From: Octopus vulgaris
Taxonomy: Eukaryota
Length of the DNA: 64,000 nucleotides
Direction: 5' to 3'
Assembly (NCBI GenBank): GCA_951406725.2
Contig: OX597827.1
Span: 20,894,001-20,958,000 of the forward strand
Shown here: positions 33,614 to 61,779 of the stretch, piece by piece
Layout: every line of letters begins with the position of its first letter
Numbering within the stretch: position 1 is the first letter of the stretch
Notes under the pieces: model-generated
The model's input: only the letters and a program-made list of their open reading frames with translations
The model's database searches: none
Told to the model about the DNA's origin: nothing
Made by a program: the position numbers and the translations under genes

Positions 33614-33683
33614 ATGGCGTCCGTCTTCTCTCTCACAGTCCTCTTGATATTGGCATCGATTTTAGTGTCACAATCGGAAGCTG
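33614..33683 (+). CDS. Transferrin-like exon 1, signal peptide [23 protein letters not shown]
   Basis: ATG in ATCATGG context, hydrophobic core, SEA cleavage site, phase-1 donor G|gtaagt matching exon 2. Confidence 0.8.
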
Positions 33684-35241
33684 GTAAGTCAACGACTACA
33701 AACTTCTTTCTGTTTATTTTAGTTGTTTTACAAATATAATATAATGAAATGAAATTATTGTATACAGTGCTCAGGTGCACCACAAATATATCTATGTGTG
33801 TGTGTTTGTGTACATATATATGTCTATATAATGTTTAAAAATATATATATTTTGGAATAGCTGTCCCACCTTAAGAGGGGAAAAAATAGACGTGGGATTG
33901 GGAACAAAAGGAAAAACAATTTCAATTGTTTTTGAGGAAAAAAATATTCTTTCGGAATCGTAATTTCCGTTGTATGAATGACAGGAATACGAACTGAAGA
34001 GACCCCCTAAACTCCACCTAATCCCATGTCCTTTTCTTGTCTGGTCAGGTAACGACAGCTATTCCATAAGTCTGCCTTAAAACTGTTTAACGAAATTTGA
34101 AATAACCTCACAAACAAATACGAGAAAGACCCACTAACTACTTCAATTCATTTTTGCTTCAACTGACCTATTTATTGTAGTGTTACCGTCATTCGATGGC
34201 TTTCTCATTTCTTTTAAGGTTCCTAATTATAATTGAGGGTGATAAGAATTTCAGTATTGTATTTTGATTTTCTCTCGAAGTTTTAGATTCGATGATGACC
34301 AAGGGCACAGATATATGTGTTTAAAAAGACAAAGGCGATCTTTACTTTTAGGTTCACGTTTTAAAGGTATGTCGTTTGAATGTGGACACCTGTTTGGGTT
34401 AAACTAAAGCGTTAAACCACTGTTTGTACATGTGAGATGAATAACTTTTTAATACTCATCCTCCTCGTTCTAGCAAGTACACAGACACATACGGGTGCGC
34501 GTGTTTACATTTTAAATTGTAATTGGTAAAAAGTTATAAAAGTGACTTGGGCGAAGGTAAAGAAAACGCACACCACCCGTTTTCGGCGGTTAGGGTTACG
34601 CCAAAAATGGGTGGTGTGCGTATTCTTTACCTCTGCCGTGACTTGAGTGCTGTAAGTTTCGTGCTGGGTACTCGTTATTATTATCCCCATTCATTTAACA
34701 TTCGCTTTTCCCAGCTTGCGTGGGTCAGACGGAATTCGTTGAGACAGATTCGCTCCAGTCAGATGCCTTTCCTGTCACCAACCTTCACCTCTTTCCAAGT
34801 AAGATAATGTGTTTTATGTCCGAACACATTTTCAGGGAGGTCTGGAAACAAGGGACAACATTTGCATGGCCGTGTGGCTCGTTTGCAACTTTCCCATGAT
34901 GTGAAGACAAGGTGGCACAACTACGTAAACGAGTGCTCGCGTATATGACGGACTTGTTTCATGTGGCTTTGGTTGGCCCATTGCAATGGTACAAGAAATT
35001 TGCCCAGCACTGAAACTGAACCACAAAACTTGCTGTTGGAAAGCAAACTTCTTACCCACACCTATATCCAAAATTAAGACAAACACCATTCCGCCATGTG
35101 ATCAGCTTGAAAAATTGTTGAGATATTAAGATATTTTCCTATTTTTCTTAACATGAAACCAATGGTAGCCTTAATTCACAAATAAAGAAATTCTATCCAC
35201 CAATCCGGAGTTGAGCATTCATTGTCATCGTTTGACATTTA

Positions 35242-60800: not shown

Positions 60801-61779
60801 ACACCTGTCAAAGGCAGGAGAGAGAGAGAAAGAGTTGGCAGCAGCATCTATTAAGGTGTGGTTTATAGAGTGATTGACAGCTGTCATTTGGTTGAGAGAG
60901 TACAAAAGCAGGAGAGAGAAAGGTGTGGTTTACAGAGTGATTGACAGCTATCATTTGGTTGAGAGAGTACAAAGGCAGGAGAGAGAAAGGTGTGGTTTAC
61001 AGAGTGATTGACAGCTATCATTTGGTTGAGAGAGTACAAAGGCAGGAGAGAGAAAGGTGTGGTTTATAGAGTGATTGACAGCTTTTCTTTGAAGGATTGT
61101 GGGAGTGAATAAAGGGGAGTGTTGTAATTAACTCTATGGCTCTGTCATAGAATGCAATTCCAATATTATTCTTATTTGAAGAGTCACATTTACTAGAATG
61201 GTTAATGGGTTAAGTGTGAGTAAGGACATGTTCGTTGGTAAAGTGGAGCCAACCAAGAGAGAATAAAGTTTTTAAAACAAGAATAAACAATGGTTGTTTC
61301 TCTGATTTCTGATCAACTGTTAAAATTCTGTTGAAAATTTTCCCACTCAAAAACCCAGTTGTAGAACAGAAAGGAATTGGATTAGAGGTTTTTTTATTTA
61401 TTTATTTAGAGTTCCTCTCTTCCTTCAAAATGAATGTAAACAAGGTTAGTATGGCTCAATCAGACCAGCTTCCTGTGCAGTCCCATGGTGGTACTGTGTT
61501 TTACGGAAAGTATGGAGTTCATTATGGGTTCTCATTAGTCGCCTCTGATTGATGAATTACTTTGATTTTTGACTTATGTTGCAGCTGGCGGAGATGTGGC
61601 ATTTGTTCGTCACCTGACACCCAGGGATAATACGGATGGGCGGAACCATGCAAAATGGGCGAGGAACCGGCGCTCTGATGACTACGAATTGTTGTGTAAA
61701 GGTGGTGGTCGTGCTAACATTGATGACTGGGAGAAATGCCATCTTGGTAAAGTTCCTGCAAATGCCATTGTTACTGGAA
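33614..61779 (+). CDS. Transferrin-family (melanotransferrin-like) gene, 12 coding exons in window, 3'-incomplete
   Basis: Manually spliced exons: 33614-33683, 41539-41674, 41838-41959, 44614-44709, 46960-47118, 49284-49468, 50976-51276, 52771-53017, 56285-56400, 58428-58544, 60455-60628, 61585-61779. All introns are GT-AG with matching phases and no stops over 1918 nt. Signal peptide plus two transferrin lobes (VRWC..., ADxxxLD, GAFRCL, GDVAFV, CHLGKVP). NTDGRN...WA...RSDDYELLC resembles the melanotransferrin C-lobe. Confidence 0.95.
34550..34637. mobile_element. 88-bp hairpin MITE, GG..CC ends, 8-bp TSD GTGACTTG
   Basis: 39-bp imperfect inverted arms around a GTTAGGGTTA loop; TSD at 34542-34549 and 34638-34645. 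Confidence 0.85.
35894..36218 (-). repeat. 3' LTR
   Basis: TGTAG...CTACA termini; adjacent PPT gaaggggagcct on the minus strand (36219-36230); about 96% identical to 40752-41077. Confidence 0.95.
36448..39344 (-). pseudogene. pol: pol (protease, RT, RNase H, integrase), frameshifted
   Basis: Protease [18 protein letters not shown] and [11 protein letters not shown] (YVDD to YVDE); RNase [12 protein letters not shown]...ELLAIY; integrase H-x3-[29 protein letters not shown]. Split over several frames. Confidence 0.93.
39335..40066 (-). pseudogene. gag: gag with one in-frame TGA at 39776-39778
   Basis: ORFs 39776-40066 and 39335-39769 share a frame; [11 protein letters not shown]-terminus and [18 protein letters not shown] (CHCC) knuckle. 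Confidence 0.9.
40740..40749 (-). promoter_or_regulatory. Primer-binding site TGGTGACCCC (tRNA-Trp 3' end complement)
   Basis: 2 nt inside the 5' LTR boundary; complementary to ...GGGGUCACCA. Confidence 0.85.
40752..41077 (-). repeat. 5' LTR
   Basis: TGTAG...CTACA termini, followed on the minus strand by the PBS. Confidence 0.95.
41539..41674 (+). CDS. Transferrin-like exon 2 ([20 protein letters not shown]...KCLLMFD)
   Basis: ttgcag acceptor, gtaagt donor, VRWC lobe-start motif. Confidence 0.92.
41838..41959 (+). CDS. Transferrin-like exon 3 ([20 protein letters not shown]...PIMAEKYS)
   Basis: ttttag/gtgagt boundaries; ADxxxLD motif carrying the Asp ligand. Confidence 0.93.
43250..43845 (-). 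mobile_element. RTE-clade LINE 3' fragment
   Basis: ORF 43509-43829 (LHGSEAW...RRLCWYGHV...RRGKPRKTW) followed by a 3' UTR shared with many (CAT)n-tailed copies in the window. Confidence 0.85.
44614..44709 (+). CDS. Transferrin-like exon 4 ([31 protein letters not shown])
   Basis: tttcag/gtaaga boundaries; aligns to YYAVAVV...LKGKKSCH. Confidence 0.9.
45485..46263. mobile_element. 779-bp fold-back MITE of the same family as 32090-32507, in intron 4
   Basis: GGATCTTTTCC...GGAAAAGATCC ends, TSD AGATTTGA/AGATTTGC; the two halves are inverted copies. Confidence 0.9.
46663..46888 (+). mobile_element. SINE family A
   Basis: Same consensus on the + strand. Confidence 0.85.
46960..47118 (+). CDS. 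Transferrin-like exon 5 ([12 protein letters not shown]...FFGGMCLPG...NPF)
   Basis: atcag/gtaagt boundaries; AGWxxP and FFxxxCxPG motifs. Confidence 0.92.
47618..47995 (+). mobile_element. SINE family B
   Basis: Full-length match. Confidence 0.85.
48332..48963. repeat. 35-bp minisatellite, 18 copies (GGGGTCTCCTCATCCAGTTCCAACAGTGAGCCTTA), intron 5
   Basis: Head-to-tail units with no spacers and few variants. Confidence 0.97.
49284..49468 (+). CDS. Transferrin-like exon 6 ([10 protein letters not shown]...[12 protein letters not shown]...GDMAFL)
   Basis: tgcag/gtaagt boundaries; GYxGAFRCL motif. Confidence 0.95.
49845..50064 (-). mobile_element. SINE family A next to a family B head (49676-49840)
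   Basis: Same consensus. Confidence 0.85.
50976..51276 (+). CDS. Transferrin-like exon 7 (DFRLVCPNG...[12 protein letters not shown]...RNLLFTDGT...SWV)
   Basis: Polypyrimidine tract plus cag, gtaagt donor; VPSH His ligand and LLFxD motif. Confidence 0.95.
51413..51506. repeat. 47-bp tandem duplication
   Basis: TTAGAATATCGATCTCTTGATAATCCACCCTAACCCAAAACTGC twice. Confidence 0.9.
51821..52049. mobile_element. TTAA-flanked piggyBac-type MITE
   Basis: TTAA-CCCTTTCGTTAC...GTAATGAAAGGG-TTAA. Confidence 0.8.
52373..52593. mobile_element. Second copy of the TTAA MITE, inverted relative to 51821-52049
   Basis: TTAA-CCTTTTGTTAC...GTAATGAAAGGG-TTAA; the interior is the reverse complement of the first copy. 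Confidence 0.8.
52771..53017 (+). CDS. Transferrin-like exon 8 (linker and lobe 2 start, ARWCVTS...[15 protein letters not shown])
   Basis: ttacag/gtatgc boundaries; second RWC and LDAG motifs. Confidence 0.95.
53988..56185 (+). mobile_element. Cluster of four co-oriented family B SINEs (53988-54473, 54823-55222, 55250-55530, 55768-56185) in intron 8
   Basis: Repeated head/core/tail consensus separated by (TA)n. Confidence 0.85.
56285..56400 (+). CDS. Transferrin-like exon 9 ([27 protein letters not shown]...NMK)
   Basis: ttgtag/gtgagt boundaries; LxPIxxExY motif; phases 2/1 fit the neighbouring exons. Confidence 0.9.
56740..57690 (-). mobile_element. R4/Dong-like non-LTR retrotransposon remnant with restriction-like endonuclease, intron 9
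   Basis: Minus-strand [40 protein letters not shown] (PD..D motif), preceded by [11 protein letters not shown]. Confidence 0.8.
58428..58544 (+). CDS. Transferrin-like exon 10 ([19 protein letters not shown]...CNAFRNI)
   Basis: Pyrimidine tract plus ggcag, gtgagt donor; aligns to KSCHTGxGRxAGWNIP. Confidence 0.9.
60455..60628 (+). CDS. Transferrin-like exon 11 ([11 protein letters not shown]...SLCEAC...[15 protein letters not shown])
   Basis: tttcag/gtgagt boundaries; CxPG, LCxxC and GAFRCLVE motifs. Confidence 0.95.
60853..61083. repeat. 67-bp tandem repeat, ~3.5 copies, intron 11
   Basis: AAGGTGTGG recurs at 60853, 60920, 60987 and 61054. Confidence 0.95.
61585..61779 (+). CDS. Transferrin-like exon 12 (GGDVAFVRH...DYELLC...[14 protein letters not shown])
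   Basis: ttgcag/gtaagt boundaries; GDVAFV and DYELLC motifs. Confidence 0.95.

What the first reader, a model, noticed from the sequence alone, without database searches (positions are those of the whole stretch)
33614..61779. Secreted bilobal transferrin that appears to have lost canonical iron binding in both lobes
Seen, by manual alignment to human serum transferrin motifs: lobe 1 keeps Asp (LDPG), Tyr188 (GYDG) and His249 (VPSH), but has Tyr95 to Phe (KFYSVLVV), Thr120 to Pro and Arg124 to Asn (CFPSIGNAAGW). Lobe 2 keeps only Asp (LDAG) and the anion Arg. Its first Tyr is Phe (FHVVAIAKK), its second Tyr is Ala (YYGANGAF), His is Asn (VPANAIV) and Thr is Ala ([11 protein letters not shown]). 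The cysteine scaffold and reading frame are intact. Established: transferrin folds have been repurposed for non-iron roles, for example saxiphilin (toxin binding), the inhibitor of carbonic anhydrase, fish otolith matrix protein-1 and the pacifastin heavy chain. Inference: this may be a cephalopod transferrin that binds another ligand, such as copper, a toxin, a small molecule or a mineral matrix.
Basis: partly seen in the sequence, partly recalled or inferred. Interest (0 to 1): 0.75.

Follow-up and report, generated by a model that had tools for sequence, protein, structure and literature searches.

The report
Octopus transferrin-2 (melanotransferrin) orthologue
This is the octopus copy of an already annotated, widespread invertebrate gene, transferrin-2 or "melanotransferrin", whose protein has lost most standard iron-binding residues, as its snail, worm and fly relatives have, and which likely sits anchored on cell surfaces helping to build cell junctions rather than carrying iron.

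Summary
The gene and all residue calls are real. It has 14 GT-AG exons, the last two just beyond the window, and encodes 750 aa: two transferrin lobes, no extra lobes, and a hydrophobic GPI-type tail, so it is probably membrane-anchored rather than secreted. The model is 748/750 identical to an NCBI Octopus "melanotransferrin". Trees place it with Drosophila Tsf2 in a protostome clade (100/99; 75/56 with two hairworm sequences added). Ligand loss is clade-wide: none of 51 relatives has a complete C-lobe iron site. Only the N-lobe Tyr95-to-Phe change looks cephalopod-fixed (4 of 4). Two other transferrin genes in this genome keep a complete iron site. Best reading: a GPI-anchored epithelial junction protein like fly Tsf2, binding iron weakly or not at all; this is untested in molluscs. 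One residual point of interest: the ligand-poor C-lobe is the more conserved lobe in molluscs (69% versus 47%) and carries a fixed GRGDGW motif, hinting at a constrained non-iron site. The scan had no earlier look-alike. Interest is low.

The parts
33614..33683 (+). Exon 1: start codon and signal peptide
   Evidence: hydrophobic N-terminus, Kyte-Doolittle 15-residue maximum 2.86
35915..41073 (-). LTR retrotransposon in intron 1 (300-nt direct repeats, 96% alike; RT, RNaseH and integrase-zinc matches in separate frames); not part of the protein
41539..41674 (+). Exon 2: start of N-lobe
41838..41959 (+). Exon 3: N-lobe Asp ligand kept (D87, codon at 41890)
44614..44709 (+). Exon 4: Tyr95 position is Phe (F116, 44631); Thr120 position is Pro (P141, 44706)
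46960..47118 (+). Exon 5: Arg124 position is Asn (N145, 46968)
49284..49468 (+). Exon 6: Tyr188 position kept (Y222, 49364)
50976..51276 (+). Exon 7: His249 position kept (H284, 51057); end of N-lobe
52771..53017 (+). Exon 8: linker and start of C-lobe; Asp kept (D430, 52989)
56285..56400 (+). Exon 9: first C-lobe Tyr position is Phe (F458, 56340)
58428..58544 (+). Exon 10: anion loop; Thr position is Ala (A484), Arg kept (R488), mollusc motif GRGDGW with D490
60455..60628 (+). Exon 11: second C-lobe Tyr position is Ala (A565, 60598)
61585..61779 (+). Exon 12: His position is Asn (N634, 61761)
61780..64000 (+). Start of intron 12, which runs past the window end. Exons 13 and 14 lie beyond the window (L001:1884-1959 and L001:2532-2790) and encode the end of the C-lobe, a small-residue site (D724-G725-S726), a spacer, a 17-residue hydrophobic tail and the stop
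   Evidence: the GPI reading is by inspection, no GPI predictor was run

Best explanation
The gene encodes a 750-residue two-lobed transferrin that groups with fly transferrin-2 (Tsf2) and is predicted to be GPI-anchored on epithelial cell surfaces, where it likely acts as a structural or trafficking component of septate junctions, binding iron weakly (N-lobe) or not at all. Shown here: gene structure, ligand substitutions, hydrophobic tail, tree position, and other transferrin genes in the genome with complete iron sites. Inferred steps: (1) the signal peptide and tail give a lipid-anchored surface protein; (2) as reported for Drosophila Tsf2, it is endocytosed and recycled to the apicolateral membrane during junction maturation; (3) the C-lobe, with 1 of 4 protein ligands left but high conservation, serves protein or small-ligand contacts rather than Fe3+; (4) iron handling falls to the C18 and C25 paralogues.
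For: Closest database protein is named melanotransferrin; model 748/750 identical to XP_029644932.1. Best solved-structure match by sequence and by Foldseek is human melanotransferrin 6xr0. Spiralian clade plus arthropod Tsf2, including Drosophila miranda melanotransferrin P0180 (named), has support 100/99 in a 21-row tree; grouping the spiralian clade with the mollusc C18-like paralogues instead is rejected, p-AU 0.0003. Hydrophobic tail in 50 of 52 clade sequences. Among 51 relatives, canonical residues are kept at N-Thr120 in 6, N-Arg124 in 4, C-Tyr517 in 4 and C-His585 in 0; complete four-ligand C-lobes 0 of 51, N-lobes 9 of 51. Paralogues: the C18 C-lobe has D,Y,T,K,Y,H and a hydrophobic tail; the single lobe found at C25 has D,Y,T,K,Y,H. 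Fly Tsf2 described as a GPI-linked septate-junction component (passages of PMC13213057, PMC3708341, PMC5801409).
Against: No localisation, tissue or knock-down data for any mollusc member were found, so the junction role is transferred from one insect at 280 of 730 identical positions. With two Gordionus sequences added, the branch joining spiralian and arthropod members falls to 75/56. The trees are unrooted and hold no identified insect Tsf1 or Tsf3. Fly Tsf2 is reported to need iron binding, yet the octopus protein lacks both first Tyr ligands that arthropods mostly keep (14 of 16 and 15 of 16), so the mechanism cannot be identical in detail. The GPI anchor is inferred by inspection only.
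Confidence: 0.62

Rival explanations
1. It is still an iron-binding surface protein: the N-lobe holds one Fe3+ through Asp87, Tyr222, His284 and solvent or another anion, and iron-dependent recycling works as reported in the fly. This can be true together with a junction role.
For: 3 of 4 N-lobe protein ligands are kept in all 4 cephalopod relatives. Both lobes of the model superpose on closed, iron-bound lobes at 1.5-1.9 A. Fly Tsf2 is said to bind iron with incomplete ligand sets. Recalled, not checked: single Y95F or R124 mutants of human transferrin keep weakened binding, and insect Tsf1 uses non-canonical coordination.
Against: Tyr95, Thr120 and Arg124 are lost together. N-lobe ligands vary freely in molluscs (Tyr188 kept in 10 of 22, His249 in 7 of 22) and the N-lobe is the less conserved lobe, which does not look like a site under selection. 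A closed predicted model reflects training structures.
Confidence: 0.22
2. The mollusc C-lobe cleft has been re-tooled as a specific pocket for a non-iron small ligand (Asp430, Arg488, Asp490), making the protein a surface receptor or sensor rather than only a junction scaffold.
For: C-lobe identity exceeds N-lobe identity in 55 of 55 mollusc pairs (0.69 versus 0.47), against 0.53/0.53 for vertebrate transferrins. The anion loop reads GRGDGW in all 4 cephalopods; among 22 other molluscs R is found in 20 and D in 21, while other spiralians and arthropods mostly have Ala at the Asp position. The exact motif occurs in 26 of 368 fetched proteins, all mollusc-clade.
Against: The C-lobe is also the more conserved lobe in arthropod Tsf2 (0.56 versus 0.46) and in the iron-competent C18-like paralogues (0.56 versus 0.48), so part of the effect is general. 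Conservation fits a protein-protein surface just as well. No ligand is known and the model coordinates could not be inspected.
Confidence: 0.2
3. One reading: a secreted, cephalopod-specific binder of copper, a toxin or mineral matrix, like saxiphilin, ICA or otolith matrix protein.
For: Precedents exist for non-iron transferrin folds (passages of PMC6584486, PMC3603312). The N-lobe Phe for Tyr95 is fixed in 4 of 4 cephalopod relatives against 0 of 22 other molluscs.
Against: GPI-type tail; orthologues across protostomes; no thyroglobulin insert or other domain. Saxiphilins rank far below melanotransferrin in the sequence search (E about 1e-79 versus 1e-153). Phe at that site also occurs in 3 of 9 other spiralians and 1 of 16 arthropods.
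Confidence: 0.06

Closest known systems
Drosophila transferrin-2 (Tsf2, MTf; arthropod 'melanotransferrin')
   Same: Same tree clade; two lobes, signal peptide, hydrophobic tail; shared Thr120-to-Pro, loss of the N-lobe anion Arg, loss of the second C-lobe Tyr, His-to-Asn in the C-lobe.
   Different: Octopus lacks both first Tyr ligands that the fly keeps, but keeps N-lobe His and C-lobe Arg that the fly lacks. No long low-complexity N-lobe insert (750 versus 836 aa). 280 of 730 aligned positions identical. Junction role untested.
Vertebrate melanotransferrin (MELTF, p97; PDB 6xr0)
   Same: Best solved-structure match; GPI-type tail; degenerate C-lobe in mammals.
   Different: Mammalian and coelacanth melanotransferrin keep the full N-lobe site. 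In the unrooted trees vertebrate melanotransferrin sits on the side of the octopus C18 paralogue, not this gene, so the shared name does not show one-to-one orthology.
Octopus C18 transferrin paralogue (P0059 family; probably the kind described from bigfin reef squid, PMC6934447, matched by length only)
   Same: Bilobal, hydrophobic tail, also labelled melanotransferrin-like.
   Different: Complete C-lobe iron and anion site; 206 of 635 positions identical; separate clade with a limpet second copy.
Saxiphilin, inhibitor of carbonic anhydrase, otolith matrix protein-1, pacifastin heavy chain
   Same: Transferrin fold with lost iron ligands.
   Different: ICA and lactoferrin lie in the vertebrate transferrin clade. 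Saxiphilin is soluble, has thyroglobulin inserts and binds toxin in a surface pocket away from the cleft. Saxiphilin, otolith matrix protein and pacifastin were not identified among the tree rows.

Membership tests
Transferrin superfamily (PF00405) | Transferrin lobes by profile and fold | tested here: met
   Pfam 495 bits, 2 stretches. Each lobe of the P0001 model superposes on ovotransferrin N-lobes, Z 45-46, rmsd 1.5-1.9 A over about 320 residues.
Transferrin superfamily (PF00405) | Conserved disulfide cysteines | tested here: met
   28 Cys; 27 of them are present in 86-100% of 51 relatives.
Canonical iron-transport transferrins (sero-, ovo-, lacto-) | Asp, Tyr, Tyr, His plus Thr and Arg/Lys in at least one lobe | tested here: not met
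   N-lobe D F P N Y H, C-lobe D F A R A N.
Canonical iron-transport transferrins (sero-, ovo-, lacto-) | Soluble, no membrane tail | tested here: not met
   Terminal hydrophobic stretch, Kyte-Doolittle 2.3, with no charged residues after it.
Protostome transferrin-2 (Tsf2/MTf) | Groups with arthropod Tsf2 in a tree | tested here: met
   100/99 and SH-aLRT 99; weaker, 75/56, with two Gordionus rows. Unrooted.
Protostome transferrin-2 (Tsf2/MTf) | Signal peptide plus GPI-type C-terminal signal | tested here: met
   By hydropathy and inspection; actual GPI attachment not shown.
Protostome transferrin-2 (Tsf2/MTf) | Located at septate junctions and needed for the barrier | not testable with these tools
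   Known from Drosophila only through secondary passages.
Protostome transferrin-2 (Tsf2/MTf) | Binds iron (as reported for the fly protein) | not testable with these tools
   Ligand sets incomplete in both species; needs an assay.
Vertebrate melanotransferrin | Complete N-lobe iron site | tested here: not met
   F116, P141, N145.
Vertebrate melanotransferrin | One clade with vertebrate MELTF to the exclusion of other transferrins | tested here: not met
   Vertebrate MELTF groups with deuterostome transferrins and the C18-like set.
Saxiphilin | Thyroglobulin type-1 inserts in the N-lobe | tested here: not met
   Pfam finds only transferrin-clan domains; the model has no insert.
Saxiphilin | Toxin pocket residues Glu540, Phe784, Asp785, Asp794 | not tested
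   Residues read in PMC6584486; no saxiphilin alignment was obtained.

The most novel reading that the evidence does not exclude
Mollusc Tsf2 is an iron-independent version of the fly junction transferrin whose C-lobe cleft has been rebuilt (Asp430, Arg488, Asp490 in a fixed GRGDGW loop) and held under strong constraint across bivalves, gastropods and cephalopods to bind an unknown non-iron ligand. Molluscs would then carry two ancient GPI-anchored transferrin lineages, one for iron and one for this ligand, and the iron requirement reported for septate-junction assembly would not be general.
Probability: 0.22. Interest if true: 0.55.

Novelty: new member of a known kind. Interest (0 to 1): 0.24.

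Why it matters
Mostly ordinary: the gene is annotated and belongs to a protostome-wide family whose loss of canonical ligands is old and shared. It has modest value as a natural test of whether Tsf2 needs iron for junction assembly, because the cephalopod protein lacks both first Tyr ligands that arthropods mostly keep. It also shows that the database label 'melanotransferrin' covers two separate lineages in molluscs.

Tried and rejected
Extra downstream lobes: rejected. The stop comes two exons after the window, and three transcript-like contigs have 998-1128 nt after exon 8 against 937 nt of remaining coding sequence. Pseudogene or sequencing error: rejected. The frame is open and the same 12 site residues occur in O. 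bimaculoides, Argonauta and P0003. Mollusc-specific duplication from the C18 gene: rejected by the AU test. The C-lobe Arg column was mis-indexed and was redone. The careful 46-row tree did not finish, so one search is the quick tree; smaller careful trees are. Saxiphilin pocket mapping failed because no stored protein tried had saxiphilin as best match. No run was on record as RNA (kind guessed, no tissue), so there is no expression profile. RNA editing of ligand codons: no exon letter differences in exons 6-8, but contigs drop rare variants and the other exons were not examined. A claudin-family search of the genome gave 6 weak exon matches, too weak to bear on the junction role. Primary papers were not held. 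Earlier scan notes: none by sequence, only archaeal transferrins by words; not used. No complex prediction was run.
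Full report
1. Observation. Reading the DNA gave 12 exons from 33614 to 61779, all flanked by AG and GT, that join into an open frame of 639 residues. The neighbouring genome stretch holds two more exons, L001:1884-1959 and L001:2532-2790, giving 750 residues: signal peptide, two lobes, then a D-G-S small-residue site, a short spacer and a 17-residue hydrophobic tail ending at the stop. 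The model is 748/750 identical to NCBI XP_029644932.1, melanotransferrin of Octopus sinensis, and 688/750 to the O. bimaculoides protein P0001. Contigs of four coded public runs (kind guessed as RNA, tissue unknown) were laid on exons 6-8 only. The exon 6-7 join appears in 3 of 4 runs and the exon 7-8 join in 4 of 4, both GT..AG. Three contigs of 2.5-2.6 kb leave no room for further lobes. The 12 ligand and anion positions read D F P N Y H in the N-lobe and D F A R A N in the C-lobe, in the columns where shark transferrin has D Y T K Y H and D Y T R Y H. The residue calls are therefore all correct.

2. What it is. The whole-protein search returned 55 proteins at E below 1e-50, led by mollusc 'melanotransferrin-like', annelid, nemertean and arthropod 'transferrin 2' sequences. 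Human melanotransferrin 6xr0 is the best solved match by sequence and by fold. The structure prediction was made for P0001, which has the same 12 residues (mean pLDDT 90.7). Each lobe fits closed transferrin lobes at 1.5-1.9 A. The two-lobe arrangement differs from the listed bilobal structures (rmsd about 22 A); I cannot tell whether that is real. In a 21-row maximum-likelihood tree the gene lies in a spiralian clade (100/99) that joins arthropod Tsf2, including Drosophila miranda melanotransferrin P0180, at 100/99. The other side holds a second mollusc lineage and the deuterostome transferrins. Forcing the two mollusc lineages together is rejected, p-AU 0.0003. Against this, adding two Gordionus sequences lowers the joining branch to 75/56, though 99% of bootstrap trees keep the 17 named rows together. 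The trees are unrooted and contain no identified insect Tsf1 or Tsf3. The quick 46-row tree agrees; the 104-row FastTree tree places both groups in one fork of support 94 together with other rows.

3. The ligand loss is old and shared. I counted 51 relatives: 4 cephalopod, 22 other mollusc, 9 other spiralian, 16 arthropod. These are the hits without three partial sequences (P0026, P0048, P0050), one fusion (P0041) and the five vertebrate hits, plus five. Unnamed sequences were grouped by tree position or similarity, and a few rows are isoforms. Canonical residues are kept at N-Thr120 in 6 of 51, N-Arg124 in 4, C-Tyr517 in 4 and C-His585 in 0. No relative has a complete C-lobe set; 9 have all four N-lobe protein ligands. 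C-Tyr426 is mostly lost in molluscs (kept in 0 of 4 and 4 of 22) but kept in 15 of 16 arthropods. N-Tyr95 is Phe in all 4 cephalopods and Tyr in 18 of 22 other molluscs; this is the one cephalopod-level change among the four-ligand sets, and Phe also occurs in 3 other spiralians and 1 arthropod. A hydrophobic tail is present in 50 of 52 sequences, the window gene included.

4. Paralogues. The genome search found transferrin exons at three places. The C18 gene has a complete C-lobe site and a hydrophobic tail. The C25 gene shows one lobe with D, Y, T, K, Y, H followed by a stop. Iron handling therefore has other candidates; this is inference, and neither paralogue is assayed.

5. How it likely works. 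Secondary passages describe Drosophila Tsf2 as a GPI-linked, iron-binding septate-junction component whose endocytosis and recycling drive junction assembly (PMC13213057, PMC3708341, PMC5801409). [quoted passage not shown] From orthology and the tail I infer a lipid-anchored epithelial surface protein with a junction role. Iron binding is at most weak and N-lobe-based, since the C-lobe keeps 1 of 4 ligands; the human quadruple Tyr-to-Phe mutant binds no iron yet folds (PMC13505439). The weak point is that the fly protein is reported to need iron while also lacking full sites, so sequence alone cannot exclude non-canonical binding.

6. What remains unusual. The C-lobe is the more conserved lobe in all 55 mollusc pairs (0.69 versus 0.47). 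The gap is smaller in other spiralians (0.60/0.45), arthropod Tsf2 (0.56/0.46) and the C18-like set (0.56/0.48), and close to none in vertebrate melanotransferrins (0.61/0.59) and transferrins (0.53/0.53). The mollusc anion loop is nearly fixed as GRGDGW, placing an Asp where other clade members mostly have Ala; the one chiton sequence keeps the Asp but not the Arg. This suggests a constrained non-iron function, either a pocket or a protein surface. My searches listed no paper on this mollusc clade's ligands or function. The squid transferrin paper (PMC6934447, passages) concerns a 688-residue protein that by length is probably the C18 type. A population paper lists an octopus melanotransferrin with dN/dS 1.40 without showing, in the passage seen, which paralogue (PMC13669787). 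Subscription papers and supplements were not seen and may already cover these points.

7. Papers. Passages only: PMC13213057, PMC3708341, PMC6934447, 10.1101/2021.06.14.448311, PMC11094094, PMC13025143, PMC13669787, PMC6584486, PMC5801409, PMC13505439, PMC3603312. Not held, known only from titles, secondary passages or recall: Tiklova 2010, Najera 2021, Weber 2020, 2021 and 2022, Gorman 2023. Lambert 2005 was seen only as a citation.

8. Verdict. A real, spliced, already annotated gene of a known family. New member of a known kind, interest 0.24.

Noticed in passing
window 35915-41073, - strand, intron 1: LTR retrotransposon with 300-nt direct repeats 96% alike; RT, RNaseH and integrase-zinc matches lie in separate frames. 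Ty3/gypsy type by domain order (recalled).
   Followed up: partly
L005:1954-8260 and L004 (G000:C18): Second bilobal transferrin with a complete C-lobe iron site, a degenerate N-lobe and a hydrophobic tail. The database model P0059 ends differently and lacks the tail that the genomic frame shows.
   Followed up: partly
L009:6610-2200, - strand (G000:C25): Apparently single-lobed transferrin with all canonical ligands and a stop right after the lobe; the signal exon was not traced.
   Followed up: partly
window within 13974-15191, + strand: Database model P0362 replaces the true first residues with a low-complexity stretch from this upstream open frame, probably an annotation error.
   Followed up: partly
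window 13875-15461, - strand: 528-codon low-complexity open frame (Thr, Asn, Asp runs) with short ordinary-looking segments; no Pfam match. It may be an exon of another gene or simple repeat.
   Followed up: no
model m55bf6ce8cd96 (P0001): Predicted lobe-to-lobe orientation differs from the listed bilobal transferrin structures (rmsd about 22 A) although pTM is 0.78; it may be a real feature of the clade or a model error.
   Followed up: no
window 48330-48970: Tandem repeat of about 39 nt in intron 5, seen by eye.
   Followed up: no
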